The notes under the pieces: generated by a model
The model's input: the letters and a program-made list of their open reading frames with translations, nothing else
The model's database searches: none
Told to the model about the DNA's origin: nothing
In this document: one piece after another, positions 47,091 to 58,101 of the stretch
Numbering within the stretch: the first letter of the stretch is position 1
How the letters are laid out: each line of letters opens with the position of its first letter
Assembly (NCBI GenBank): GCA_963721385.1
Contig: CAVRJB010000019.1
Location: 981,946-1,045,945, forward strand
Length of the DNA: 64,000 nt
From: an uncultured Acidobacteriota bacterium
Lineage (GTDB): Bacteria; Acidobacteriota; Thermoanaerobaculia; UBA5066
Reading direction: 5' to 3'
Translations under genes and position numbers: made by a program

Positions 47091-48155
47091 GTGCCCACGG
47101 CCACGCTCAGTGAACAGACTGCGCTCGACGCGCTCCGGACCGTCAAGTACCCCGGATTCTCCCGGGACATCGTCTCGTTCGGCTTCGTGAAGGACCTCGC
47201 CGTCGGGGGCGGGAATGTCTCGTTCCGTCTCGCGATGACGGCAGACCAGCCGGCCATCGGCGAGCAGCTGAAAGCCGAGTGCGACGCCGTGCTCCGCCGC
47301 CTTCCGGGCGTCACGAGCGTCACGATCTCGGTCCAGGCGGCACCCCCGCGCCCGCCCGTCGTGGCGGCCGGAGCGCCCCTGGGCCAGGCCGAACTCCTCA
47401 AGGAGACGCGGTTTACGATCGCCGTCGCGTCGGGAAAGGGAGGCGTCGGGAAGTCGACCGTGGCGGCGAACCTCGCCCTCGCGCTGACGAGGCTCGGCTA
47501 TCAGGTCGGATTGATGGACTCGGACATCTACGGGCCGTCCCAGCAGATGATGATGGGAATCTCCTCGCGCCCCTTCGTCAACGACGAGGAGAAGATTCTC
47601 CCGATCGAGAAGCACGGCGTCCGCGTCATGTCGATCGGCTTCCTGATGGACGTCGACACGCCCGTCATCTGGCGGGGGCCGATGATCTTCAAGGCCGTCG
47701 AGCAGTTTCTCGGCGACGTGGCGTGGGGGAAGCAGGACTTTCTCGTCATCGACCTGCCGCCCGGCACCGGCGACGCCCAGCTGACGCTCACGCAGAAGGT
47801 CCACCTCTCGGGCGCCGTCATCGTGACGACGCCGCAGGACGTCGCCCTGATCGACGCCCGCAAGGGACTCGCCATGTTCCAGAAGGTGAACGTCGACGTC
47901 CTCGGCATCATCGAGAACATGAGCTACTACGAGTGCCCGAAGTGCGGGAATCGCGAGGAGATCTTCAAGCATGGCGGCGGCAAGAAGACCGCCGATCTGC
48001 TCGGCGTCCCGTTCCTCGGAGAGATTCCCCTCGACCCGCGCGTCGCGGTTCAGGGCGACGCCGGGACGCCGATCGTCGTCGCCGAACCCGACTCGGTCGT
48101 CACGAAGGCGTTTCTCGAGCTGGCCCGGCAGGTCGCGAAGGCCGTCGGCGCCTAA
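47091..48155 (+). CDS. mrp: Mrp/NBP35 (ApbC) Fe-S cluster carrier ATPase
   Basis: N-terminal DUF59-like domain; ASGKGGVGKST, DSDIYGPS, WRGPM, DLPPGTGD, VTTPQ, ENMSYYECPKC. Confidence 0.95.
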   Translation: MPTATLSEQTALDALRTVKYPGFSRDIVSFGFVKDLAVGGGNVSFRLAMTADQPAIGEQLKAECDAVLRRLPGVTSVTISVQAAPPRPPVVAAGAPLGQAELLKETRFTIAVASGKGGVGKSTVAANLALALTRLGYQVGLMDSDIYGPSQQMMMGISSRPFVNDEEKILPIEKHGVRVMSIGFLMDVDTPVIWRGPMIFKAVEQFLGDVAWGKQDFLVIDLPPGTGDAQLTLTQKVHLSGAVIVTTPQDVALIDARKGLAMFQKVNVDVLGIIENMSYYECPKCGNREEIFKHGGGKKTADLLGVPFLGEIPLDPRVAVQGDAGTPIVVAEPDSVVTKAFLELARQVAKAVGA

Positions 48156-49924
48156 GGGGCCGGGGGCGCCTGGGGCGCCGTGGCCGCGGCCCTGAGGAGT
48201 CTCGGCGCGAAGACGAGCGCGAGGCCGTAGAGGGCGAAGGCGGGGAAGAGGGTCGCCGGCCGGCCGTTTGGCAGGTCCTCGAGGACGAGCTTCAAGCCCC
48301 CGAGCGCGAGGAGGGGCCAGACGAGCCACGAGAGCTCGAGGAGCCGGGACCTTCTTCTGCCGGCGGCGAGGAGGATCGCCGCCCCCGCGAGGACGCTGCT
48401 TCGGATCATCGCGACGAGACCCGGATCCGCCCCGACGCCGGCGCCGATGAACCTGGCGAGCGCGTGCTCCACGATCGTCCCGGCGCCGAGCGCCGCGAGG
48501 ACGGCCGACGTGAAGACTGGCAGGCGGGTCCAGAAAGTCGAGCGGTGGGCTCCGGGCGCCGTCAACAGGGCATAAACGCCCGCCGCGGCCGCGAAGACCA
48601 GGATGGCCGTCGCGGGAATCGGAGCGTCCGAGGCCGAGGAGGGCGCCGCGAAGGCGACGTAGGATGCGGCGAGCAGCCTCCCCGTCGCGGCGGCGAGGAG
48701 GAGGTAGACGGCGGCGTGAGCCGCCGGGGTCCGACCGGCGCCCCGGGCCGCGAAGGCCGAGGCGACCAGACTGAAGAGGACGAGGGGCGCGAACCGGAGG
48801 CCCGCCGGGAGGGCGAGGCCCACGAAGGCGAGCGCGAGGAGGAACGCGAGGGTCGCATGGAGACGCGCCACCGGGGCGGCTTCCTTCCGGGCATTCGCGA
48901 GGGCGTAGAGCGCCGCGGCGCCGGCGGCCGCGCCAGCGCCGACGGCGGTCACCGGGAGTCCGGCCCGTGATCCGAGCCACGCGGCCGTTCCGAGGCCCGC
49001 CGCGAGCGCGGCCGGGGTCTGGATCCAATCGAGCGCGGAGGGCGCGTGCCTCCGGAGGGCCGTCCGCCAGACGGCGGCGGCGAGATAGAGCGCGGCGAGG
49101 AGGATCGCGAGGGCGGCGAGGACGCCGGGCGAGATTCCCGGATACTCGTCGGCAGCCGCGCCGGGCCGCGTCGCAACGAAACCCGCCGAAGCGACGGCGA
49201 AGTCGGCCGCGACGGCCGCCGGCCAGGGGAGGCCGGTCCAGCCCCTCTCGTTCGCCGCCCCGAGCGACAGCGCGCCGACCGCGAGGAGGAGCGCGACGAA
49301 CGTCGCCACCGCATGCGTCGTCACGAGCAGAAGGAGGGCCGCGGGGAGGACGCCGAGCACCACGAACCAGCCGGCGGCCGGGAGGTTCCGGATCGCCGAG
49401 AGGGCGAGGCCGAGGGCGGCGAAGACGCCGAGGAGCGCGGCGGCCGTGCCTGCCGAGAGGACGCCGAGGCGCGTCGCCGCCTCCCAGACGAGGGGGCAGA
49501 CGACGAGCGTCGCCGTGAGCGCGTCGGCGGCCGCCCGGAGGCGGTCGCCCTTCCGCGCTCCCCTCTCGGCGAGGAAGAGCCACGCGAGGGCGTACGCGAG
49601 GCCCAGCGTCACGCCGGCGCCCGGCGGGAGCGCACCGGCCTCGGTCACGGCGCGAATGAGGAAGGCGCCTCCGAGCGCGAGAACGCCGCGTCCGGCGAGG
49701 GCGATCGTCCGCGAAAACGACTCGAAGGGCGGCGTCGCGGCATCCACCGGGGAGACCACGGCGGCGGCGGCCGCAGCGGCGGGCGCCGGCTCGGCGACGG
49801 CTGCCGAAGGAGCCATCGGGGCTTTCCCGGGCATCTCGAGTGCGGCCACGCGGGCCTCGAGCGATCGGAGCGTCTCGGCGAGTTCGCTCACCTTTGCGGT
49901 CAGTTTCGCGACGGCGTCGTCCAT
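48152..49924 (-). CDS. Polytopic membrane protein with N-terminal coiled coil (DUF2339-like)
   Basis: VSELAETLRSLEARVAALE, Pro/Ala linker, then a long series of TM helices (GRGVLALGGAFLIRA...). Confidence 0.7.
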   Translation of the reverse strand: MDDAVAKLTAKVSELAETLRSLEARVAALEMPGKAPMAPSAAVAEPAPAAAAAAAVVSPVDAATPPFESFSRTIALAGRGVLALGGAFLIRAVTEAGALPPGAGVTLGLAYALAWLFLAERGARKGDRLRAAADALTATLVVCPLVWEAATRLGVLSAGTAAALLGVFAALGLALSAIRNLPAAGWFVVLGVLPAALLLLVTTHAVATFVALLLAVGALSLGAANERGWTGLPWPAAVAADFAVASAGFVATRPGAAADEYPGISPGVLAALAILLAALYLAAAVWRTALRRHAPSALDWIQTPAALAAGLGTAAWLGSRAGLPVTAVGAGAAAGAAALYALANARKEAAPVARLHATLAFLLALAFVGLALPAGLRFAPLVLFSLVASAFAARGAGRTPAAHAAVYLLLAAATGRLLAASYVAFAAPSSASDAPIPATAILVFAAAAGVYALLTAPGAHRSTFWTRLPVFTSAVLAALGAGTIVEHALARFIGAGVGADPGLVAMIRSSVLAGAAILLAAGRRRSRLLELSWLVWPLLALGGLKLVLEDLPNGRPATLFPAFALYGLALVFAPRLLRAAATAPQAPPAP

Positions 49925-49958: not shown

Positions 49959-51140
49959 TCACGCGGTCTTCGTGCCCTCCTCGTCCCACGGCGGGAGCAC
50001 CTTCAGGAGAGCCCAGAGGATGACGAACGGGAGGATCAGCAGGAGGATCGCCGGAAGGAGACCCTCGCGCGTGGCGAAGGCCATCTTGTACGTCGTGTAG
50101 CCGAGAAAGCTCTTCGAGAAGAGCTGCCCGCCGATGACCACGTTCCACCGCATGGCGAAGATGCCGATGAGCGTCAGGACCCCTGCCAGAACGTAGATTC
50201 CCTTCCGGGCCCCCTCCGTCAGCTTCACGATCTGCGTGAAAGCGAGGAGTCCGATCGGGACGATCGTGCCGAAGACGATCTGGATGAGGATCTGCGACGT
50301 GTAGAGCCGCGTCCGGACCATGAAGTCGAGGCTCTGGAACGACTCGTCGGCTTCGTAGATCCGGTGGATCAGGTCGAGCAGCTCGATCGAGAAGTCGATC
50401 AGGAAGGCGTACAGGAGGTACCGGGCGATCGTGTCGATGCACGGCATGTCGATCTCGATTCCCTTGAGGAAGCAGACCGCCATGTACATCAGGAGGACGA
50501 GGGCGATGCCCGAGACGATCGCCGAGAAGAGAAAGACGATCGGCATCACGGGAGTCGACCACCACGGATTCGCCTTGACCGACCCGAAGATGAAGCCCAC
50601 GTATCCGTGCAGGAAGAACGCCGATGGGATGCCGATGATCGTGATGAAGCGGCCGACCTTGTCGTCCACCTTCAGCGAGGCCTCGCTGATGTCGTCGACG
50701 CCGAGCGTGAGCGCCTTGTAGAGCTTCTTCTTCCACCCCGCCTCGCTCCGCGACATCAGGACGATCTCCTTCCGGTAGTCGAGCCAGATCTCGACGACGA
50801 GGACCGCCATCAGGTACCAGAGGTAGACGAAGCCGAACATCGCCATCGCCGACGTGGTGTGCGGCGTCAGGTACATCTCGTACGAGCGTTCGGGGTGGCC
50901 GAGGTGGAGCTGCAGGGGAAGCGGCGCGACGAGGAGAAAGGCCAGCGCCGTCAGGAGCGCCAGCCGGTAGGTCGGCTTCACGGCCTGGACGTTGAAGACG
51001 CGCTCGAGCGAGGCGAGGATGAAAGCCCCGGCGACGAGTCCGGTGGTGAAGGGGTAGAGGACGATCAGGATGCTCCACTGAAGCTCGATCTCGTTGGGGT
51101 ACATGTACCCCTGGACCGCGGAAATGAGGGCTTCTTCCAT
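49959..51140 (-). CDS. nrfD: NrfD/PsrC-family membrane subunit
   Basis: WSILIVLYPFTTGLVAG, LHLGHPERSYEM, TSAMAMFG, LHGYVGFIFG, RWNVVIGGQ. Confidence 0.9.
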   Translation of the reverse strand: MEEALISAVQGYMYPNEIELQWSILIVLYPFTTGLVAGAFILASLERVFNVQAVKPTYRLALLTALAFLLVAPLPLQLHLGHPERSYEMYLTPHTTSAMAMFGFVYLWYLMAVLVVEIWLDYRKEIVLMSRSEAGWKKKLYKALTLGVDDISEASLKVDDKVGRFITIIGIPSAFFLHGYVGFIFGSVKANPWWSTPVMPIVFLFSAIVSGIALVLLMYMAVCFLKGIEIDMPCIDTIARYLLYAFLIDFSIELLDLIHRIYEADESFQSLDFMVRTRLYTSQILIQIVFGTIVPIGLLAFTQIVKLTEGARKGIYVLAGVLTLIGIFAMRWNVVIGGQLFSKSFLGYTTYKMAFATREGLLPAILLLILPFVILWALLKVLPPWDEEGTKTA

Positions 51141-51144
51141 CGTC

Positions 51145-51906
51145 CTATCTCACCGTCCCGTCGAGGTTGTTGTAATAGACCTTCGCGCCGGTCGCCATCT
51201 GCGGCTTGAGGACCTGGACCATGTGCGTCCTGAGGAACTCGTGCACGGGGTCCTTCGGGTTCTTCAGGTCGATGAGCTGGCGAGCCCCGGTGGGGCAGGC
51301 CTCGCAGCAGGCGGTGGTCAGTCCCTTCGTGATCCGGTGGTAGCAGAGGTTGCACTTGTCGACCGTGTTCGTGGCGGGGTGGATGTACCGGCAGCCGTAC
51401 GGGCAGGCCTGAATGCAATAGCGGCAGCCGAGGCAGTAGGTCTTGTCCACGAGGACGGCGCCGTCAGGGGTCTCGAAGGTGGCTCCCACCGGACACACCT
51501 GCGTGCAGGGGGAGTGCGCGCACTGGTTGCAGAGCTTCGGCACGAAGAAGCTCTTGGCCCCGTCGCCCGCCGGGTACTTCTCGGCAAAGCCGTCGTAGCC
51601 GCCGTTCGGGGAGTCGACGTCGGGATGCTCGGACCAGCCCCCCTCGATGTGATACCGCTCGACCCAGGTCCGGAAGAAAAACGGCTCGAGGGGGACGCCG
51701 TTTTCGGCCTTGTCGGCCCGGACGCAGTTGCCGCACCCGATGCACTTTCCGATGTCGATGATCATCCCCCAGTAGTGATCCGCCATCTTGTAGGCGGGCT
51801 CCATCTCCTTGCCGGACTCGGCGGCCGAAAGGTAAGCGGCCGCGGGAGCCGTGACGATCAGGAGCTTGCCGGCCGTGAGGACGAAATCCCGGCGGTTCGA
51901 CGTCAT
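51145..51906 (-). CDS. nrfC: NrfC/DmsB-family 4x[Fe-S] electron-transfer subunit with Tat signal
   Basis: Tat SNRRDFV; Cys groups CIGCGNCVRAD, CNQCAHSPCTQVC, CLGCRYCIQAC, CNLC...ACCEAC. Confidence 0.9.
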   Translation of the reverse strand: MTSNRRDFVLTAGKLLIVTAPAAAYLSAAESGKEMEPAYKMADHYWGMIIDIGKCIGCGNCVRADKAENGVPLEPFFFRTWVERYHIEGGWSEHPDVDSPNGGYDGFAEKYPAGDGAKSFFVPKLCNQCAHSPCTQVCPVGATFETPDGAVLVDKTYCLGCRYCIQACPYGCRYIHPATNTVDKCNLCYHRITKGLTTACCEACPTGARQLIDLKNPKDPVHEFLRTHMVQVLKPQMATGAKVYYNNLDGTVR

Positions 51907-52373
51907 GATTTCGGCTCCTTGTTCGGCGCGTGCGAAGCGTGGCATCCGTGGCAGTCGCCGCCGTCGAAGTGCGCCTTCAGCTCGATCTGCGGGAACTTCC
52001 TGGGCTTGGCCACGTTGGCGAGGTGGCACCTCACGCAGAGCGTCTTCGGCTCCGGCTTCGCCGGCTTCAGCGCGGACGGGTCCTCCGCGTGCCGGGCAAG
52101 AGGCCCGTGGCAGGCCTCGCAGCCGACGCCGGCGTGCTTGCCCGCCGCCAGTTCCTCCTTTTTGTCCGTGTGGCAGTCGCCGCAAGGGGCCCGACCGGCG
52201 AAGGAGACCGGCCGGGACCGGTTGTCCGCGAGCGCCCCGGCCCGGTAGTGCCCGTAGAGGCCGAAACCCTTGGGGACGAAGATCGCGCGGGCGAGCACGA
52301 ACAGGACGAGTCCCGCGGCGAAGAGGCCCGCCATCCGGACAAGGTGCATCTTGTCCTTGAAGAACTTCTGCAT
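51903..52373 (-). CDS. Membrane-anchored tetraheme cytochrome c
   Basis: N-terminal TM; four CxxCH motifs (CGDCH, CEACH, CVRCH, CHGCH). Confidence 0.92.
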   Translation of the reverse strand: MQKFFKDKMHLVRMAGLFAAGLVLFVLARAIFVPKGFGLYGHYRAGALADNRSRPVSFAGRAPCGDCHTDKKEELAAGKHAGVGCEACHGPLARHAEDPSALKPAKPEPKTLCVRCHLANVAKPRKFPQIELKAHFDGGDCHGCHASHAPNKEPKS

Positions 52374-52510: not shown

Positions 52511-55500
52511 TCAGCGCCGCGAGCCCGGTTCGCGGTCAACCTGACGGATCTTCGCGTAGAGGAGGATCCCGAAGATCGAGATGAAGGCCGTCGTGAGCAG
52601 AAGGCCGTTTCGCCGGTAGCGGTACTCCCCCCACGTTTTCGCGGTCCCGTCCTTCAGCTGGTCGACGGATTTCGACGCCGCCTCCGAGTTCCGCAGGAAG
52701 TCGCTTCGGTCGAACGTGTGGGTGCCGAGGCGGGTCTTCCGGAGGGCGTCGTTTACCGCGCTGGACTGGAACCGGAGTTCGTCCACGTCGAAGCCCCGCT
52801 CCGAAAGGTGGTCGACCTCGGTCTCGAGCGTCGAGGCCCGGCCGGCGAGGCCGGTGATCGTCGTGTAGAAGAAGCCCGCCGTCTCGATGCATTTCGGCGT
52901 CCCGAACTTCTCGTGGCAATCCGTGCAGAGCGCCTTCGGCCCGGGCTTGAGCATCGCGTCCGTGGGAACCTCGATCAGGTGGTTGTTGTGACAGGTGGCG
53001 CATTCGGGCCACTGGTTCCGCTCGAAGGCCTTCTTGTGCGGGCTGCCGTCGAACAGCGTCGCATTGGACGCGTGGCAGTGCCGGCAAACCTGCGAAACGA
53101 ATGCCGTCTGCGGCTGCAGGGCGGCGTGGTTCCCGTGACAGCCGTTGCAGGCCGGGGCTCCGGCGTCGTGCTTCTTCAGAAGGGCAATGCCGTGCACGCT
53201 CTTCCGGTACTGCGCCAGCTGGTTCGTCGGGAGCGGCCTTCCGTCGGGAAGGCTGTAGCCCTTCATGTACGCGGCATCGGCGTGACACCGGCCGCAGGTC
53301 GTCGGGATGTTCTCGGGGAAGACGAGCGACGCCGGGCTGTCGGGGCCGCGGATGCCGTGGACGCCGTGGCAGCTGACGCACTGGGCCGCCTTCGAGTCCT
53401 TTTTCGTGAGGAGGAGCTCGCCGTGACGGCTGCTCCGGTACTTGGCGAGCTGGTCCACGGGGAGCTTCGGGTTGTAGCTCCGCATGAACTCGCTCGAGGA
53501 GTGGCACCGGGCGCAGAACCCGGGGATCCAGGAAAGGTCCTTCTTTCGCGCCTCGCCGGCCGGCCAGCGCTTGTAGATCTCGGGGGACATCTCCATGTCG
53601 GTCGGCTTGCCGCCGTGGCAGCCGGAGCACATCAGGCCCTTGCGGAAGTGGACGTCGCTCACGACTTCCTTCAGGTCCAGGTGTCCGTACGGCGCGCTGT
53701 GGTCCTCGCGGATCCTGAAGATGATCTCGTCCGGCAGGTCCGGATTGCTGTGGCACAGGACGCAGTTGTCCGAGAGGACGAGCTCGGTCTTTCGGTCGTC
53801 GAGCTCCAGCGAGAGGAGCGTGGCGAGCTGGACGGGGGACGCAAGGAGTCCGGAAGCCGCCGCCTTGAAGAAGAGCTCCTGGGCGTGACTCGGGAGCTCC
53901 CGGAATCGGGCCTTCGATTTCTCGTCGAGGACCGGCTTTCCTTTTTCCTCGGCGGCGAAGAGCTTCCGGAAATCGGCGGGCCACGAGCCCTCGGCGACGT
54001 GGGCGCCCGCCGGGGCGGCAGATGCGGTCGTCGGCGGGGCGGGGGCGCCCTTCTCTTCGGCGCGGGCCGGGATCCCAGTCAACGAGGCCAGAACGAGGAT
54101 CGCCGCGGCTCCGGCCGCGCCGCGTCGGGTGTACCTGAAGAGGCCGTAGGCCGCGAGGAGCGCGGCGGCGATCCCGCCGGCTGCGAGCCAGCTGACGTGG
54201 GCGAAGCCGTTGAGAAACGCCTGAAGGAGGACCGCCGCCGTGAAGACGAACGCCACGTGCTTGTAGCGGAGGCGGCGGAACGCCGTCACGAGGAAGCCCG
54301 CCGCGAAGGTCCAGATCGCGGCCGTCCGCGCGATGACGGCGGCGAGGGCCGGGTCGGCGGCGGGGTCCTGGCCCTTCGGGACGGTGACGCCGATGTCCCA
54401 GGCTTTGAGCGTCAGGAAGCCGATGAAGAGGAGGCCTGCCACGCCGAGGTCCGTGAAGAGCGGGCTCGGCTTGTCCTTCGCCGCGTTCCGGTCGAGGAGC
54501 GGGACGAAGAACGCGATCCCCATCAGGATCGTCGAGAGGAGCAGGCAGGCCTGCGGGCCTTCCATCCCGAGGACGTGCGCCGGGAACTCCTTGAGCATCT
54601 GGTAGATCCAGAGGAAATACCACTCCGGCTTGATTCCCGGGTAGGCGGGCTTCAGCGGGTTCGCCTTGTCGCCGAGCGCCCACTCCATCCCCGGGATCCC
54701 CGGCCCGAAAGGAAGAACGACGGCCAGGATCGCGAGAGCGTTCAGACAGACGACCCACAGCAGGACGTCTCGCAGGGCGAAGTTCGGGAAGAAGGGCATG
54801 CCGGGGGACCGCGGCGCCGGATGGTGTTCGGACTCGAGCGGCTCGGCCATCCCCTGGCGCTGCACGAAGAGGAGGTGGACGCCGATGATCCCGGCGATCA
54901 CGAGCGGAAGGATGCAGACGTGGAGGGCGAAGAAGCGGTAGAGCGTCTGAACCGAGACCTCTTCGCCTCCCCGGAGAACGCGGAGGAGCCACGGGCCGAC
55001 GAGCGGGACGGACTTCACCGAATCGGTGCCGACGGCCGTCGCGAAGTAGCTCAGCTCGTTCCACGGCAGGAGGTAACCCGAGAAGCCGAAGCCGAGGACG
55101 AGGCCGAACATCGCGAAGCCCGAATACCAGGTCATTTCTCGCGGCTTCCGGTAAGCCTTCACGAAGAGGACGCTGAAGAGGTGGACCAGGACGGCGAGGC
55201 TCATCAGGTGGGCCGACCAGCAGTGGATCGATCGGATCAGCCACCCGAACGGCACGTGGCCGACGAGGTATTTCATGCTCTCGTACGACGTCTTCTCTCC
55301 GACCTGGTAGTACATGAGGAGCAGGATCCCGGTCACGATCTGGACGACGAAGAAGAAGAGAGAGACTCCGCCGAAGTAGTACCAGACCGTCGAGTGCGCG
55401 CCGACCGGGACTTCCTTGTGGCTCAGGAACTCGACGAGCCCGGAGATCTGGTATCTCTCGTCCAGCGCGTGCCAGAGCCGGCCGAGCGCGGTCGTCTGCG

Positions 55501-55528
55501 GAGGCCCGGAAGCCGGGTTCGTGCTCAC
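52511..55528 (-). CDS. Cytochrome b (Rieske/cyt b complex type) fused to a nine-heme cytochrome c domain, 1005 aa
   Basis: GTGA overlap with the Rieske stop. Heme-b His pairs IHCWSAH...VH and ALH...GVH; GFSGYLLPWN; PEWY. Nine CxxCH: CVLCH, CSGCH, CARCH, CVSCH, CGRCH, CNGCH, CRHCH, CATCH, CTDCH. C-terminal TM helix. Confidence 0.95.
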   Translation of the reverse strand: MSTNPASGPPQTTALGRLWHALDERYQISGLVEFLSHKEVPVGAHSTVWYYFGGVSLFFFVVQIVTGILLLMYYQVGEKTSYESMKYLVGHVPFGWLIRSIHCWSAHLMSLAVLVHLFSVLFVKAYRKPREMTWYSGFAMFGLVLGFGFSGYLLPWNELSYFATAVGTDSVKSVPLVGPWLLRVLRGGEEVSVQTLYRFFALHVCILPLVIAGIIGVHLLFVQRQGMAEPLESEHHPAPRSPGMPFFPNFALRDVLLWVVCLNALAILAVVLPFGPGIPGMEWALGDKANPLKPAYPGIKPEWYFLWIYQMLKEFPAHVLGMEGPQACLLLSTILMGIAFFVPLLDRNAAKDKPSPLFTDLGVAGLLFIGFLTLKAWDIGVTVPKGQDPAADPALAAVIARTAAIWTFAAGFLVTAFRRLRYKHVAFVFTAAVLLQAFLNGFAHVSWLAAGGIAAALLAAYGLFRYTRRGAAGAAAILVLASLTGIPARAEEKGAPAPPTTASAAPAGAHVAEGSWPADFRKLFAAEEKGKPVLDEKSKARFRELPSHAQELFFKAAASGLLASPVQLATLLSLELDDRKTELVLSDNCVLCHSNPDLPDEIIFRIREDHSAPYGHLDLKEVVSDVHFRKGLMCSGCHGGKPTDMEMSPEIYKRWPAGEARKKDLSWIPGFCARCHSSSEFMRSYNPKLPVDQLAKYRSSRHGELLLTKKDSKAAQCVSCHGVHGIRGPDSPASLVFPENIPTTCGRCHADAAYMKGYSLPDGRPLPTNQLAQYRKSVHGIALLKKHDAGAPACNGCHGNHAALQPQTAFVSQVCRHCHASNATLFDGSPHKKAFERNQWPECATCHNNHLIEVPTDAMLKPGPKALCTDCHEKFGTPKCIETAGFFYTTITGLAGRASTLETEVDHLSERGFDVDELRFQSSAVNDALRKTRLGTHTFDRSDFLRNSEAASKSVDQLKDGTAKTWGEYRYRRNGLLLTTAFISIFGILLYAKIRQVDREPGSRR

Positions 55529-56004
55529 GCGACACCTCCCGGTTTCGAGACCGTGATCGTCCCCTTCAGATCTCCGTCCACGGCGTAGGCCGCGAGCGGC
55601 CGGGGCGGGGGACCCGAGAGGACCCGGCCGTCGAGGGAGAACTTCCCGTTGTGGCAGGCGCACCAGATGAGGGCGTCGGCGGCGACGAACTGCACCGTGC
55701 ACCCCTCGTGCGTGCACTTGGCCGAGAACGCGCACAGCTTTTCGTCCTTCTTCTTCAGGACGATGACCCGATCCGAGCCGATCCGCGTGATCAGGGAGCC
55801 CATGTTGGAGAGCTCCTGCCTCTGGGCGTCGGTCAGGGTGATCTTGTTCGGGCCGCCGGCGTCCTTGGGTGGCGTCAGGTACCGGAGGATCGGGTAGACG
55901 ACGGCCGCCGCCCAGGCGACGAGGCTGCCGCCGAGCAGGGTGTCGAGCCAGCGCCGCCGCGAGACCGGCTTGCCGGCGCCGTCCGGTTGAAGGTCTTCGC
56001 TCAC
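55525..56004 (-). CDS. Rieske [2Fe-2S] protein
   Basis: AGGAGG RBS; Tat VSRRRWL plus TM; CTHEGC and CACHNGKF; GPPPRPL. Confidence 0.95.
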   Translation of the reverse strand: MSEDLQPDGAGKPVSRRRWLDTLLGGSLVAWAAAVVYPILRYLTPPKDAGGPNKITLTDAQRQELSNMGSLITRIGSDRVIVLKKKDEKLCAFSAKCTHEGCTVQFVAADALIWCACHNGKFSLDGRVLSGPPPRPLAAYAVDGDLKGTITVSKPGGVA

Positions 56005-56086: not shown

Positions 56087-56845
56087 ATGGACGGAAGAAA
56101 CCTCGTCGAGTCGCTGTTTCGCTGGATCCACGTCCTGGCCGGCATCCTCTGGATTGGCCAGCTCTGGTTCTTCAACTGGGTCAATTCGAATTTCGTGCCG
56201 ACGATGGACGCGGAGACGAAGAAGAAAGTCGTCCCGGAGCTGATGCCCCGGGTGCTCTACCTCTTCCGCTGGGGTGCGGCCTGGACCTGGGTCACGGGGC
56301 TCCTGCTGCTCGGGCTCGTCTACCACGCCACGGGGCTGCAGTTCGCCGATCCCGGCGCAAAGAACGCCATGGCGGGGGGGATCCTGACCCTGGTGGCGCT
56401 CCTGATGTTCGCGGTCTACGACCCGGTCATGAAGGCGATCGCGAAGCCCGAGGTCCAGGCGGCCGTCGGCTTCGTCGGGATCGTGGTCCTCGTCTGGGCC
56501 TTTGCGTCCGTGGGGGGGTTCGGGTGGCGCGGCACGGCCATCCACCTCGGGACGACGCTCGGCACGATCATGGCGGCGAACGTCTGGATGCGGATCTGGC
56601 CCGCGCAGCGGAAGATCATCACGGCGACGAAGAACGGCGAGAAGCCCGACCCGGCGCTCGTCGCCCAGGCGGGGCTCCGGTCGAAGCACAACACGTACAT
56701 GTCGGTGCCGCTCGTCTTCACGATGCTCGCGCAGCACGCCACGTGGGCCGCCGGTACTCTCTGGGCGCTCCCCGTCGTCGTCCTCGTCGGCTGGGGCTTC
56801 GTCTTCTGGATGTACGGCAAGGCGGCGAAGGTCAAGGGATTCTGA
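56087..56845 (+). CDS. PuuD N-terminal-like (Urate_ox_N/DUF989-type) integral membrane protein, no cytochrome c domain
   Basis: FRWIHVLAGILWIG, FRWGAAWTWVTG, GTIMAANVWMRIWPAQRKI, RSKHNTYMSVP; no CxxCH. Confidence 0.75.
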   Translation: MDGRNLVESLFRWIHVLAGILWIGQLWFFNWVNSNFVPTMDAETKKKVVPELMPRVLYLFRWGAAWTWVTGLLLLGLVYHATGLQFADPGAKNAMAGGILTLVALLMFAVYDPVMKAIAKPEVQAAVGFVGIVVLVWAFASVGGFGWRGTAIHLGTTLGTIMAANVWMRIWPAQRKIITATKNGEKPDPALVAQAGLRSKHNTYMSVPLVFTMLAQHATWAAGTLWALPVVVLVGWGFVFWMYGKAAKVKGF

Positions 56846-56891
56846 TCCGGGAACCGGATCCCCGGTTCCTCGGTCGAAGGGTGGGCAGGCC

Positions 56892-58101
56892 ATGCGGCGA
56901 CTCGCGCTCCCTCTGACGACGCTCCTGCTCTTCGGGACCGCCGTCGGCGCTTCCGAACCCGGGGGCTCGGCCTTCACGGCCGGGAACACCGCGTTCGCCC
57001 TCGACCTCTACCGCGAGGTCGGGAAGGGCGGAAAGAACATCTTCTTCTCGCCGGTGAGCCTCTCGGAGACGCTCGCCATGGCCTGGGCCGGCGCGCAGGG
57101 AGAGACGGCCCGGCAGATGGCGAAGGTCCTCCGATTCCCGGCACGGGAGGAAGAGGTCCACGCGGGCTTCCGCGACCTCGAGCGGCGGATTTCGGCGATT
57201 CAGGCTGGCGGGAAGGCGGAGCTGGCGGTCGCGAACGCCCTCTGGACCCGGGCCGGCGAGCCGCTCCTGCCGCGGTTCGTGACGCTGCTCAGAGATTCCT
57301 ACGGTGCCGCGCCGACGCCCGTCGACTATGCGAAGGCGCCCGAACTGGCGCGAAAGACGATCAACGCGTGGGTCGCGTCGAAGACGCGGGACCGGATCCA
57401 GGACCTCCTCCCTCCGGATTCCCTGGACCGCTCCACCCGGCTCGTCCTCACCAACGCGATCTACCTTCAAGGGAAAGTGGAAGAGCCCGTTCGAGAAGTC
57501 GATGACCGTGGACGCCCCGTTCTTCGTCGCGCCGGGGAAGAAGGTGGCGGCTCCGTTCCTGCGCGGCTCGCCGAAGTCCGGCTACCTCGAGGTCGAGGGC
57601 GCGCAGCTCCTCTTGCTGCCGTATGAAGGAGACGACCTGTCCCTCGCCGTCCTCCTCCCCCGGGAAGCCGACGGGCTCGCCGCGCTGGAGGAGTCCCTCA
57701 CGGCCGAGCGTCTGACGGCGTGGCTGTCGGCGGCGGGCCGCGCCCGCCAGGCCGTCGAAGTCTTCCTGCCGCGGTTCCGGATGGCGACCGGCTTCACGCT
57801 CAAGGCGGCGCTCACGTCGCTCGGGATGACCGACGCCTTCGACCCGTCCCGGGCGGACTTCGCCGGGATGAGCAGCGCCCCGCCCGGCCTCTTCATCGGG
57901 GAGGGCTTCCACAAGGCGTTCGTCGAGGTGAACGAGGAGGGGACCGAGGCGGCCGCCGCGACCGGCATCGTGATCATGCCCACGTCGATGCCCCCCCCGA
58001 AGCCGGTCTTCCGGGCGGACCACCCGTTTCTCTTCCTGATCCGGGATGAAGCGAGCGGAGCGGTCCTCTTCCTGGGGCGCGTCGCGGACCCGACGCACTG
58101 A
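56892..58101 (+). CDS. Secreted serpin, frameshift at 57464-57465
   Basis: Signal peptide; [31 protein letters not shown], then (extra C) FKGKW; [13 protein letters not shown] hinge; [11 protein letters not shown]. Confidence 0.92.

What the first reader, a model, noticed from the sequence alone, without database searches (positions are those of the whole stretch)
52511..55528. Cytochrome b fused to a nine-heme c domain in place of cytochrome c1
Seen: unsplit cyt b with PEWY. The second His pair has 14 intervening residues (b6-type spacing). The heme-ci position reads WYYFGG rather than YCxGG, so no covalent heme ci is expected. Extra TM helices follow, then nine CxxCH motifs in a repeating S.HG...CxxCHGxH pattern and a C-terminal TM. 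Established: Geobacter CbcL has a nine-heme domain, but on an FdnI/HydC-type di-heme cyt b, not a Rieske-type one. Inference: domain shuffling placed a CbcL-like heme wire on a Q-cycle enzyme.
Basis: partly seen in the sequence, partly recalled or inferred. Interest (0 to 1): 0.75.

Follow-up and report, generated by a model that had tools for sequence, protein, structure and literature searches.

The report
Cytochrome b fused to nine-heme partner
This gene joins the cytochrome b of a complex-III-type quinol oxidase to the nine-heme cytochrome that is normally encoded by the next gene; it is a lineage-specific fusion within a widespread but unstudied enzyme family, not a new kind of machine.

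Summary
It encodes a Rieske-type cytochrome b: PEWY motif, b6-type His spacing and no heme-ci Cys. Four extra transmembrane helices follow, then nine conserved CxxCH motifs, a helical stalk and a C-terminal anchor. A Rieske gene overlaps its start.

The "CbcL-like wire shuffled onto a Q-cycle enzyme" reading is not supported. The heme domain's relatives are about 420-aa, signal-peptide-bearing, C-anchored nine-heme cytochromes. In 79 of 80 loci, spread over roughly a dozen phyla, that gene sits directly after Rieske and cytochrome b genes. The window's protein is therefore a fusion of two neighbouring genes. The fusion arose in one Acidobacteriota clade and independently elsewhere.

The last extra helix is the former signal peptide. 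It keeps a conserved A-x-A site, so cleavage into two subunits (as in Bradyrhizobium FbcH) is plausible but untested.

The likely function is menaquinol:multiheme-cytochrome oxidoreductase, feeding periplasmic or outer-membrane cytochromes. A tetraheme/NrfC/NrfD module is a recurrent but optional neighbour.

I found no paper on this family. The general design (Rieske/cytochrome b with multiheme partners) is known. Read mapping was unavailable.

The parts
55525..56004 (-). Rieske [2Fe-2S] subunit, 159 aa. It has a twin-arginine leader (SRRRWLD) and a TM anchor. Its cluster boxes are CTHEGC and CACHNGKF, which lack the Ser and Tyr of high-potential Rieske proteins.
   Evidence: Pfam Rieske 3e-12 and TM_PetC. 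NCBIfam b6f iron-sulfur subunit, below its cut-off. Sequence. Its stop overlaps the start of the next gene.
52511..55528 (-). The finding: a 1005-aa cytochrome b / nine-heme cytochrome c fusion, in one reading frame.
   Evidence: More than 100 full-length homologues. Alignment A1.
54401..55528 (-). Cytochrome b core, residues 1-376, helices A-G. It carries the b-heme ligands H102/H116 and H203/H218, WYYFGG in place of the heme-ci site, and PEWY at 301-304.
   Evidence: (best PDB match by sequence is cytochrome b6, 1e-47).
54128..54352 (-). Three extra transmembrane helices H, I and J (residues 393-467). They return the chain to the cytoplasmic side. They are shared with the split 'long cytochrome b' relatives.
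   Evidence: Hydropathy. AlphaFold2 helices 393-422, 428-442 and 447-467. Cytochrome b of the split relatives matches up to residue 450-474.
54059..54127 (-). Eleventh TM helix, the relic signal peptide of the nine-heme gene (residues 468-490, RRGAAGAAAILVLASLTGIPARA). It ends in a conserved A-x-A and is followed by E/Q/D.
   Evidence: Among 44 homologues, position -3 is A in 36 and position -1 is A in 39, and R468 is R or K in 41. It aligns with the N-terminal signal peptides of the separate genes. No in-frame start codon lies before it.
53765..54058 (-). Pro/Ala linker and a small helical N-terminal extension of the periplasmic domain (residues 491-588).
   Evidence: pLDDT is below 50 for 485-508 and about 90 for 510-590. 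The same extension occurs in the split long-clade nine-heme proteins.
52913..53764 (-). Nine-heme region (residues 589-872). Conserved candidate distal ligands are H627, H702, H724, H779, H801, H831, H850, M682 and M755.
   Evidence: Pfam Cytochrom_c3_2, Cytochrome_C7 and Paired_CXXCH_1. Model pLDDT 88.5.
52544..52897 (-). Long helical stalk (residues 878-972, carrying conserved H937) and the C-terminal TM anchor (973-995).
   Evidence: AlphaFold2 helices 878-910, 916-938 and 941-999. Hydropathy. H937 is conserved in 94% of the family.
51903..52373 (-). Membrane-anchored tetraheme cytochrome c (156 aa), 137 bp downstream of the fusion gene.
   Evidence: Four CxxCH and an N-terminal TM. Pfam Cytochrome_C554, Cytochrome_C7 and others.
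51145..51906 (-). Tat-exported NrfC/DsrO/TtrB-like four-cluster iron-sulfur protein. The likely start is MTSNRRDFV at 51906, overlapping the previous stop.
   Evidence: Pfam Fer4_11. NCBIfam TtrB, DsrO and NrfC, all below their cut-offs. Sequence.
49959..51140 (-). NrfD-family integral membrane quinone-interacting subunit (393 aa).
   Evidence: Pfam NrfD 2.8e-38.
48152..49924 (-). 590-aa Ala-rich polytopic membrane protein of unknown function. Its homologues recur beside the fused or long-clade operons.
   Evidence: Only a weak DUF2339 match, below the cut-off. Homologues lie next to the operon in L003, L004, L005, L013, L014, L018-L021, L023 and L033.

Best explanation
The gene encodes two subunits of a Rieske/cytochrome b quinol oxidase as one polypeptide. 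The subunits are cytochrome b and its own nine-heme, C-terminally anchored cytochrome c.

Shown here:
- The cytochrome b half has every sequence hallmark of a Rieske-type cytochrome b.
- A Rieske gene is translationally coupled to it.
- The heme half belongs to a large family of about 420-aa nine-heme cytochromes that are almost always encoded directly after Rieske and cytochrome b genes.
- In sister lineages (Krumholzibacteriota, Myxococcota, Verrucomicrobiota) the same 'long' cytochrome b and the nine-heme protein are separate genes.
- The window's eleventh TM helix corresponds to the signal peptide of that separate gene.

Inferred mechanism:
- Menaquinol is oxidised at the PEWY Qo site.
- One electron goes to a low-potential-type Rieske cluster and on into the nine-heme chain. 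One or two hemes probably have His/Met ligation and would act as the c1-like entry point.
- The other electron crosses hemes bL and bH to the Qi site, so the enzyme conserves energy by a Q cycle.
- The heme chain, held on a helical stalk, hands electrons to periplasmic or outer-membrane multiheme cytochromes or to terminal reductases.

Inferred processing. The fusion needs 11 TM helices to place the heme domain in the periplasm. The conserved A-x-A after helix 11 suggests that signal peptidase I cuts the precursor into cytochrome b and the nine-heme cytochrome, as happens in Bradyrhizobium FbcH. I put this at about even odds.

The neighbouring tetraheme/NrfC/NrfD module is most simply a second, separate quinol:cytochrome oxidoreductase, comparable to Geobacter Cbc4, that is co-located with this one.
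For: Cytochrome b identity.

Rieske partner and 4-base overlap.

Conservation of the fusion: more than 100 full-length homologues, named Thermoanaerobaculia, Holophagales, Acidobacteriota and Haliangiales.

The heme-domain family:
- 2492 hits at E<=1e-3 and 346 at E<=1e-30.
- 96 of 148 representatives have exactly nine CxxCH. The typical member has a signal peptide and a C-terminal TM.

Gene order Rieske, cytochrome b, nine-heme gene: 6 of 6 genomes and 79 of 80 loci in about a dozen phyla.

Tree:
- The fused Acidobacteriota rows lie in a 100%-supported 'long cytochrome b' clade, beside a 100%-supported clade of the split forms.
- A second, independent fusion is seen in a Chlorobiota locus. 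Well-supported branches force at least two changes.

Frequency: about 5 of 201 genomes of the phylum are fused, against 54 of 201 that carry the module.

Relic signal peptide.

Candidate heme ligands: six invariant His, plus H937 (94%), H831 (81%), M682 (96%) and M755 (98%).

Genome context:
- No cytochrome c1 in the genome.
- System I cytochrome c maturation genes (CcmF, CcmE, CcmC) lie just upstream.
- The genome holds further large multiheme cytochromes, including a 30-heme protein and a heme-rich protein with a barrel-like C-terminus 4-11 kb past the window end.
- In the Haliangiales locus the fusion sits next to MtrC/MtrF-like cytochromes and a cbb3 oxidase.
Against: - There is no experimental data for any member. 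Expression, heme loading, cleavage and the electron acceptor are all inferred.
- The full-length model is only moderate (pLDDT 72). It gives no Rieske-to-heme geometry.
- Most of the nine hemes are probably bis-His and could be low-potential. That would make transfer from a Rieske cluster at about +150 mV uphill, unless the Met-ligated heme or hemes provide a bridge.
- The physiological acceptor is unknown. Neighbourhoods differ between loci: NrfCD module, Mtr-like cytochromes, oxidase, or none.
- A cleavage motif in an internal, eleventh TM helix may never be presented to signal peptidase.
- Raw reads were not checked.
Confidence: 0.8

Rival explanations
1. Domain shuffling: a CbcL-type nine-heme periplasmic domain from an FdnI/HydC-type quinol oxidase was transplanted onto a Rieske-type cytochrome b.
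For: Both proteins have nine CxxCH and generic c7/c3-type repeats. One distant relative of the repeat unit (P0247, 22 hemes) carries a weak Ni_hydr_CYTB domain of 24.5 bits, below the cut-off.
Against: - The nearest relatives of the whole heme module are Rieske/cytochrome b-linked in 79 of 80 loci.
- Split sister forms exist with the same long cytochrome b and the same N-terminal extension.
- None of the 24 sampled relatives with other architectures had a PF01292 match above the cut-off.
- Domain order is opposite to CbcL. A helical stalk and conserved Met are present here. CbcL has no conserved Met and no such stalk is described for it.
Confidence: 0.04
2. The two modules of the cluster (Rieske/cytochrome b/nine-heme and tetraheme/NrfC/NrfD, perhaps with the 590-aa membrane protein) form one supercomplex with two quinone sites. 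Electrons would pass between the sites through the heme chains, for example for reverse or confurcating electron flow, or for uphill electron transfer during Fe(II) oxidation.
For: - The six genes are packed with overlaps in the Holophagales locus.
- The trio recurs within 6 kb in loci of different phyla: L015, L033, L038, L055, L065 and L088. It lies adjacent but convergent in L004.
- No catalytic subunit is encoded.
- Castelle et al. 2013 proposed Fe(II) oxidation for a cluster holding MtrAB, multiheme cytochromes and a Rieske/cytochrome b complex.
Against: - The trio is absent from most loci, about 73 of 80.
- It is absent from close fused relatives L013, L014 and L016, and from the Haliangiales locus.
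- In L004 it lies on the opposite strand.
- In the window a 137-bp gap separates the two modules.
- Similar tetraheme/FeS/membrane trios work alone in Geobacter as Cbc4.
Confidence: 0.12
3. The nine-heme domain is catalytic rather than a wire. It would be an HAO/NrfA-like reductase with one open-coordination heme, fed directly by the Rieske/cytochrome b core.
For: - The best structural matches of the model are Kuenenia hydroxylamine oxidoreductase (TM 0.41, probability 1.0) and then NrfA.
- 8 of 37 family members give weak Cytochrom_C552 hits.
- Caldithrix abyssi has a Rieske, cytochrome b, epsilon-Hao gene string (PMC5317091).
Against: - The Foldseek E-value is only 0.05 and no match reaches E<=0.001.
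- There is no CxxCK motif.
- Ten conserved candidate distal ligands exist for nine hemes, so no heme need be five-coordinate.
- The same module is fused to TerB, GGDEF and histidine-kinase domains in other proteins, which fits electron transfer or redox sensing better than catalysis.
Confidence: 0.05
4. The fusion is an assembly or frameshift artefact that joins two separate genes.
For: This assembly shows apparent frameshifts in other genes: the serpin at 56502-58101, a COX1 gene split across two frames, and the giant cytochrome past the window end.
Against: - More than 100 independent assemblies have the same uninterrupted frame of about 1000 aa.
- Identity to homologues is continuous across the junction.
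- No start codon is available for a separate heme gene.
- The fused rows form a supported clade.
Confidence: 0.01

Closest known systems
Canonical Rieske/cytochrome b complexes (cytochrome b6f and bc1)
   Same: - Four b-heme His ligands.
- PEWY Qo motif.
- Helix-D His spacing of 14, as in b6.
- Adjacent Tat-exported Rieske protein.
- Best PDB sequence matches are cytochrome b6 (1e-47) and bacterial cytochrome b (1e-42).
   Different: - No heme-ci Cys, although the His spacing is b6-like.
- Cytochrome b and subunit IV are unsplit.
- Four additional TM helices.
- No cytochrome c1 or f. A nine-heme, C-anchored cytochrome takes its place and is fused to cytochrome b.
Geobacter Cbc6 / Ext cluster (GSU2930-2937: Rieske, cytochrome b, and 2-, 5-, 10- and 12-heme cytochromes; Butler et al. 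2010, PMC2825233)
   Same: A Rieske/cytochrome b core is encoded with multiheme cytochromes instead of a monoheme c1. It is proposed as a quinol oxidase for extracellular electron transfer. The window's b domain scores 192 bits on the NCBIfam cytb_ExtP model.
   Different: - That score is below the ExtP cut-off of 290, so the window's protein is not an ExtP orthologue.
- The Geobacter cytochromes are separate genes with other heme numbers.
- No Ext cytochrome model matched the window's heme domain.
Zixibacteria RBG-1 cluster of MtrAB, multiheme cytochromes and a PetAB (cytochrome b/Rieske) complex (Castelle et al. 2013, PMC3903129)
   Same: The published cluster holds a cytochrome b/Rieske complex together with inner-membrane or periplasmic multiheme cytochromes. 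Zixibacteria are among the phyla that carry the split form of this very operon.
   Different: That paper only lists the genes. The nine-heme subunit is not described as a family. Its genes are separate, not fused.
Bradyrhizobium japonicum FbcH (cytochrome b-c1 polyprotein; Thöny-Meyer et al. 1989/1991, recalled from memory and not read here)
   Same: Cytochrome b and its c-type partner are made as one precursor with an internal signal sequence. Here the internal signal-like helix keeps a conserved A-x-A site.
   Different: The partner there is monoheme c1, and cleavage has been demonstrated. Here the partner has nine hemes and cleavage is only inferred.
Geobacter sulfurreducens CbcL (GSU0274)
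   Same: It is an inner-membrane b/c fusion with nine c-type hemes that faces the periplasm and oxidises menaquinol for extracellular electron transfer.
   Different: - Its b domain is of the FdnI/HydC type (PF01292), with six TM helices and no Rieske partner.
- Its heme domain is N-terminal, 250 aa, all bis-His, with no conserved Met.
- The window has no PF01292 match, the opposite domain order, a helical stalk and two conserved Met.
Anammox Rieske/cytochrome b complexes with multiheme subunits, and the Caldithrix abyssi Rieske, cytochrome b, epsilon-Hao cluster (PMC12954380; PMC5317091)
   Same: In both, a Rieske/cytochrome b core is encoded next to multiheme cytochromes with HAO-like features. 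The window's heme-domain model matches Kuenenia HAO best, though weakly.
   Different: Those partners are octaheme HAO-type enzymes or other multiheme proteins, some with NAD(P)-binding subunits. Here the match is not significant, and ten conserved candidate distal ligands for nine hemes leave no need for an open catalytic heme.

Membership tests
Rieske/cytochrome b complex, cytochrome b subunit | Two His pairs in helices B and D that ligate hemes bL and bH | tested here: met
   H102/H116 and H203/H218. All four are invariant in 44 homologues.
Rieske/cytochrome b complex, cytochrome b subunit | Qo-site P[E/D]WY motif in the ef loop / subunit IV part | tested here: met
   PEWY at 301-304, invariant. 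Pfam Cytochrom_B_C 33.3 bits against a cut-off of 20.7.
Rieske/cytochrome b complex, cytochrome b subunit | Curated profile match above the gathering score | tested here: met
   PF00033 scores 162.3 bits against 27.2. PF13631 scores 140.4 bits against 27.
Rieske/cytochrome b complex | Cognate Rieske [2Fe-2S] protein encoded alongside | tested here: met
   Gene at 55525-56004 with boxes CTHEGC and CACHNG. Pfam Rieske 46.7 bits against 20.3. It overlaps the cytochrome b start by 4 bases.
Cytochrome b6f type (with heme ci/cn) | Cys of the CxGG motif in helix A that binds heme ci | tested here: not met
   The sequence reads WYYFGG. Y50, G53 and G54 are invariant and there is no Cys.
Cytochrome bc1 type | Monoheme cytochrome c1 subunit | tested here: not met
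   PF02167 has no match anywhere in the genome, while the control genome Caulobacter is detected.
CbcL family (Geobacter GSU0274) | HydC/FdnI-type di-heme b domain (PF01292) | tested here: not met
   No PF01292 match in the protein at E<=0.01. The b domain is of the Rieske type.
CbcL family (Geobacter GSU0274) | Nine-heme domain N-terminal to the membrane domain, all hemes bis-His, no conserved Met | tested here: not met
   Here the heme domain is C-terminal. M682 (96%) and M755 (98%) are conserved across the family. The CbcL features are taken from PMC6295460 and PMC9129911.
CbcL family (Geobacter GSU0274) | Sequence homology of the heme domain to CbcL residues 30-279 | not testable with these tools
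   No usable CbcL sequence was at hand. The supplement alignment is unreliable machine-read text and lacks the heme part.
Rieske-linked nine-heme, C-anchored cytochromes (unnamed family) | Nine CxxCH, conserved distal His set, helical stalk and C-terminal TM | tested here: met
   Identity to stand-alone members is 35-48% over about 380 residues.
Rieske-linked nine-heme, C-anchored cytochromes (unnamed family) | Encoded directly after Rieske and cytochrome b genes | tested here: met
   Here it is fused. The same order holds in 79 of 80 loci and in 6 of 6 genomes.
FbcH-type cytochrome b/c polyprotein | Internal signal sequence with a signal-peptidase site between the b and c parts | tested here: met
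   There is a basic n-region, a hydrophobic core and A-x-A at 488-490, conserved in about 90% of 44 homologues. The segment is homologous to the signal peptide of the split genes.
FbcH-type cytochrome b/c polyprotein | Post-translational cleavage into two subunits | not testable with these tools
   This needs protein chemistry.
HAO / NrfA octaheme-pentaheme enzymes | Significant fold or profile match, and a catalytic heme (CxxCK, or an open distal site) | tested here: inconclusive
   Foldseek best hit is 4n4j with E=0.05 and TM 0.41. PF13447 matches 1 of 37 family members and PF02335 matches 8 of 37, all weakly. No CxxCK. Ten conserved candidate ligands for nine hemes.

The most novel reading that the evidence does not exclude
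The Rieske/cytochrome b/nine-heme operon may be a distinct, very widespread and so far unstudied class of proton-motive complex III. In this class an HAO/NrfA-like nine-heme cytochrome on a helical stalk replaces c1/f. It would hold one or two His/Met entry hemes and would wire the quinone pool to outer-membrane conduits. In the Thermoanaerobaculia/Holophagae lineage the enzyme would be made as an FbcH-like polyprotein, and it would dock to the neighbouring tetraheme/NrfC/NrfD module to form a machine with two quinone sites.
Probability: 0.15. Interest if true: 0.75.

Novelty: new variant of a known kind. Interest (0 to 1): 0.45.

Why it matters
Rieske/cytochrome b complexes are the main energy-conserving quinol oxidases of respiration and photosynthesis. 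Their c-type outlet has been studied almost only as a one- or two-heme protein.

This protein belongs to a family in which the outlet is a nine-heme, membrane-anchored cytochrome. At least 572 species-representative genomes hold a relative, in about a dozen mostly uncultured phyla of soils, sediments and aquifers. I found no biochemical work on it.

If it runs a Q cycle while feeding multiheme networks, it would be an energy-conserving entry to extracellular electron transfer. It might also work in reverse, for iron oxidation. Geobacter's CbcL and ImcH are not known to conserve energy this way.

The fused form is a natural single-chain construct. It gives a simple handle for expression, for structure determination, and for asking whether b/c polyprotein processing evolved more than once.

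Tried and rejected
- Plus-strand translation of the given coordinates gives nonsense. The gene is on the minus strand.
- A direct comparison with CbcL failed. The only text source of its sequence is unreliable machine-read text without the heme domain.
- Dibrova et al. 2013 (PMC3839093) is not held. [quoted passage not shown]
- A sequence search of the PDB with the heme domain gave only NrfB at E=0.014.
- Foldseek against the viral library was uninformative, as expected.
- Promoter and terminator scans of the two intergenic regions found nothing. In 68% G+C DNA this says little.
- Literature searches for the fused or nine-heme form in Acidobacteria, Thermoanaerobaculia, Melioribacter and Geothrix found no description.
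- I looked for an internal start codon that would allow a separate heme gene. There is none.
- An in-frame single stop between cytochrome b and the nine-heme gene occurs in about a third of the split loci. That is the chance expectation, so I draw no conclusion from it.

Full report
**1. What is in the sequence**

The coordinates are right, but the gene is on the minus strand. The plus strand gives a meaningless Arg/Glu-rich read-through.

On the minus strand a GTG at 55528 overlaps the stop of an upstream 159-aa gene by four bases (GTGA). It opens a 1005-codon frame that ends at 52511.

Pfam places Cytochrome_B at residues 40-226 (162 bits) and Cytochrom_B_C at 289-354. It places c3-, c7- and paired-CXXCH-type cytochrome c domains between 625 and 875.

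- PEWY at 301.
- His102/116 with 13 residues between them, and His203/218 with 14, which is the b6-type spacing.
- WYYFGG where b6 has YCxGG.
- Nine CxxCH between 589 and 872.
- A C-terminal hydrophobic helix at 973-995.

The upstream gene is a Tat-exported Rieske protein with boxes CTHEGC and CACHNGKF. It has Gly and Phe where high-potential Rieske proteins have Ser and Tyr. On the scheme used by Kao and Hunte (PMC4122944) this points to the low-potential class that works with menaquinol. That is an inference.

**2. Is it real?**

A search of 5.8 billion proteins returned more than 100 full-length homologues of 960-1068 aa, at 51-85% identity. They have the same Pfam composition and come from different assemblies. 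Where named, they are Thermoanaerobaculia, Holophagales, Acidobacteriota and one Haliangiales.

In an alignment of 44 of them, the four b-heme His, PEWY and all nine CxxCH are invariant or nearly so.

No ATG, GTG or TTG lies in frame just before the heme half. It can only be made as part of the long protein.

**3. Topology**

Hydropathy and the AlphaFold2 model (pLDDT 72) give the seven helices A-G of a b6/subunit-IV-type core. Helices follow at 393-422, 428-442, 447-467 and 473-484, making eleven in all. That number puts the following domain in the periplasm.

The heme half modelled alone is confident (pLDDT 88.5). It has a compact heme-binding region, then three long helices, the last of which runs into the membrane anchor.

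**4. Where the heme domain comes from**

This is the central result.

An exhaustive HMMER search with residues 575-960 found 2492 relatives, 346 of them below 1e-30. Most are stand-alone proteins of 410-450 aa with a signal peptide, exactly nine CxxCH (96 of 148 representatives) and a C-terminal TM.

In 201 genomes sampled evenly across the window's phylum, 54 carry such a gene. Only about five have it fused to cytochrome b. In six of six genomes inspected, the stand-alone gene lies immediately after a Rieske gene and a cytochrome b gene.

A scan of species-representative genomes found at least 572 relatives. The 80 best loci come from:
- Acidobacteriota, including Aminicenantes, Blastocatellia and Pyrinomonadaceae
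- Krumholzibacteriota
- Myxococcota
- Verrucomicrobiota
- Ignavibacteriota, Bacteroidota and Chlorobiota
- Calditrichota
- KSB1
- Zixibacteria
- Gemmatimonadota
- Fidelibacterota

In 79 of these 80 loci cytochrome b is directly upstream, and in 77 a Rieske match was found as well. The nine-heme cytochrome is therefore the regular third subunit of a large clade of Rieske/cytochrome b complexes. It is not an import from a CbcL-type enzyme.

**5. How the fusion arose**

A tree of concatenated cytochrome b and heme-domain sequences splits the family in two.
- A 'short' clade has a cytochrome b of about 370 aa.
- A 'long' clade, with 100% support, has a cytochrome b that carries the three extra helices H, I and J.

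Within the long clade the fused Acidobacteriota sequences lie next to a 100%-supported group of split forms from Krumholzibacteriota, Myxococcota and Verrucomicrobiota. A second, independent fusion occurs in a Chlorobiota locus of the short clade. Shorter fusions of 765-794 aa also exist.

In the split long forms, cytochrome b ends just after helix J. The nine-heme gene starts with an ordinary signal peptide, followed by the same small helical extension as in the window. One example begins MRTAAITLVVFLTSAAVFA|AEP. The window's helix 11, RRGAAGAAAILVLASLTGIPARA|EE, is therefore the former signal peptide.

Its A-x-A is kept in about 90% of 44 fused homologues, while the neighbouring positions vary. 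This is the pattern expected if signal peptidase still cuts there. From memory, the Bradyrhizobium cytochrome b-c1 precursor FbcH is processed in exactly this way. I regard cleavage as about even odds. It needs protein chemistry.

**6. Heme ligation**

Across 84 family representatives, the conserved residues outside the CxxCH motifs are:
- six invariant His (627, 702, 724, 779, 801, 850)
- H937 at 94%
- H831 at 81%
- M682 at 96% and M755 at 98%, both in a CxxCH-x5-M context

That gives ten candidate distal ligands for nine hemes. The family probably has seven or eight bis-His hemes and one or two His/Met hemes. A His/Met heme would be the natural acceptor for the Rieske cluster, as in c1 and f. 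This is an inference.

It also contrasts with CbcL. The CbcL periplasmic domain (250 residues) has ten conserved His, no conserved Met and nine bis-His hemes (PMC9129911).

**7. Fold**

No solved structure is related by sequence. Foldseek's best matches are Kuenenia hydroxylamine oxidoreductase (E 0.05, TM 0.41 over about 410 columns) and then NrfA. Neither is significant.

Weak NrfA and NrfB profile hits recur in the family. The resemblance is a heme core followed by long C-terminal helices. It is a lead, not a classification.

**8. Surroundings**

Downstream on the same strand lie four genes:
- a membrane-anchored tetraheme cytochrome
- a Tat-exported NrfC/DsrO/TtrB-like iron-sulfur protein
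- an NrfD-family membrane protein
- a 590-aa polytopic protein of unknown function

The same six genes are packed with overlaps in a Holophagales genome. In another relative the second module is adjacent but convergent. It is absent from several close relatives and from the Haliangiales locus, where MtrC/MtrF-like cytochromes and a cbb3 oxidase are the neighbours. The trio also recurs next to split operons in Ignavibacteriota, Bacteroidota and Aminicenantes.

I read it as a frequent but optional companion. It is most simply a second quinol:cytochrome oxidoreductase, like Geobacter Cbc4. A joint supercomplex is not excluded.

Cytochrome c maturation genes ccmF, ccmE and ccmC lie just upstream.

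Elsewhere the genome has:
- a second Rieske/cytochrome b pair, followed by a five-heme protein
- heme-copper oxidases
- several ten-heme proteins
- a 30-heme protein, and a heme-rich protein ending in a barrel-like domain, 4-11 kb beyond the window end

This fits an outlet into periplasmic and outer-membrane cytochromes.

**9. Comparison with the literature**

Rieske/cytochrome b cores encoded with multiheme cytochromes are known from:
- Geobacter (PMC2825233)
- Zixibacteria RBG-1 (PMC3903129)
- anammox bacteria
- Caldithrix (PMC5317091)

Fusions of cytochrome b to class-I monoheme domains are also catalogued (PMC4122944). [quoted passage not shown]

I found no description of the nine-heme family or of this fusion. 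Earlier notes of this scan report the same three-gene core in some 22 other genomes. My results agree with them and were obtained independently.

**10. Verdict**

This is a lineage-specific gene fusion, possibly a polyprotein, within a widespread and uncharacterised variant of complex III. It is of moderate interest and is a new variant of a known kind.

Noticed in passing
window 56502-58101 (+): A serpin gene appears split between two reading frames. The N-terminal part lies in ORF 56502-57626. Pfam Serpin positions 162-370 lie in ORF 57304-58101. This is either a frameshifted pseudogene or an indel error of the assembly.
   Followed up: partly
window 56087-56845 (+): A 252-aa membrane protein with the Urate_ox_N domain (PF06181, 8e-42) is transcribed divergently from the Rieske gene. 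Its role is unknown.
   Followed up: no
genome contig C19:1050289-1056513, 4.3-10.6 kb beyond the window's end, minus strand: A 30-heme ORF is followed by heme-rich ORFs that are broken by frame changes. The last of them ends in a barrel-like C-terminal domain (final residues ...GITFRF). This is a candidate outer-membrane cytochrome conduit close to the operon.
   Followed up: partly
genome contig C1:~58600-61836 (L002): A second Rieske/cytochrome b pair, only about 30% identical to the window's, is followed by a 518-aa ORF with five CxxCH. The organism therefore has two different multiheme-linked Rieske/cytochrome b complexes.
   Followed up: partly
genome contig C19:352089-353499: One of the two heme-copper oxidase subunit I genes matches in two adjacent pieces in different open frames. 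This is another likely frameshift or assembly indel.
   Followed up: no
proteins P0183, P0198, P0207, P0212 (TerB); P0240 (GGDEF); P0265 (HisKA/HATPase_c): In other organisms the same nine-heme module with its TM helix is fused to cytoplasmic TerB, diguanylate cyclase or histidine kinase domains. The module seems to have been reused as a periplasmic redox sensor.
   Followed up: partly
proteins P0188 and P0227: In these proteins only the subunit-IV part of cytochrome b (Cytochrom_B_C) is fused to the nine-heme module. This is a third way of joining the two proteins, found in lineages with a split cytochrome b.
   Followed up: no
L012 (G105:C6:49000-66000): Two complete sets of Rieske, cytochrome b and nine-heme genes lie in tandem, with a further multiheme gene between them.
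   Followed up: no
window 48152-49924 (-) and its homologues in L003, L004, L005, L013, L014, L018-L021, L023, L033: A 500-590-aa Ala-rich polytopic membrane protein with an N-terminal coiled coil has only a weak DUF2339 match. In the 'long' clade it accompanies the operon more regularly than the NrfCD module does. Its function is unknown.
   Followed up: partly
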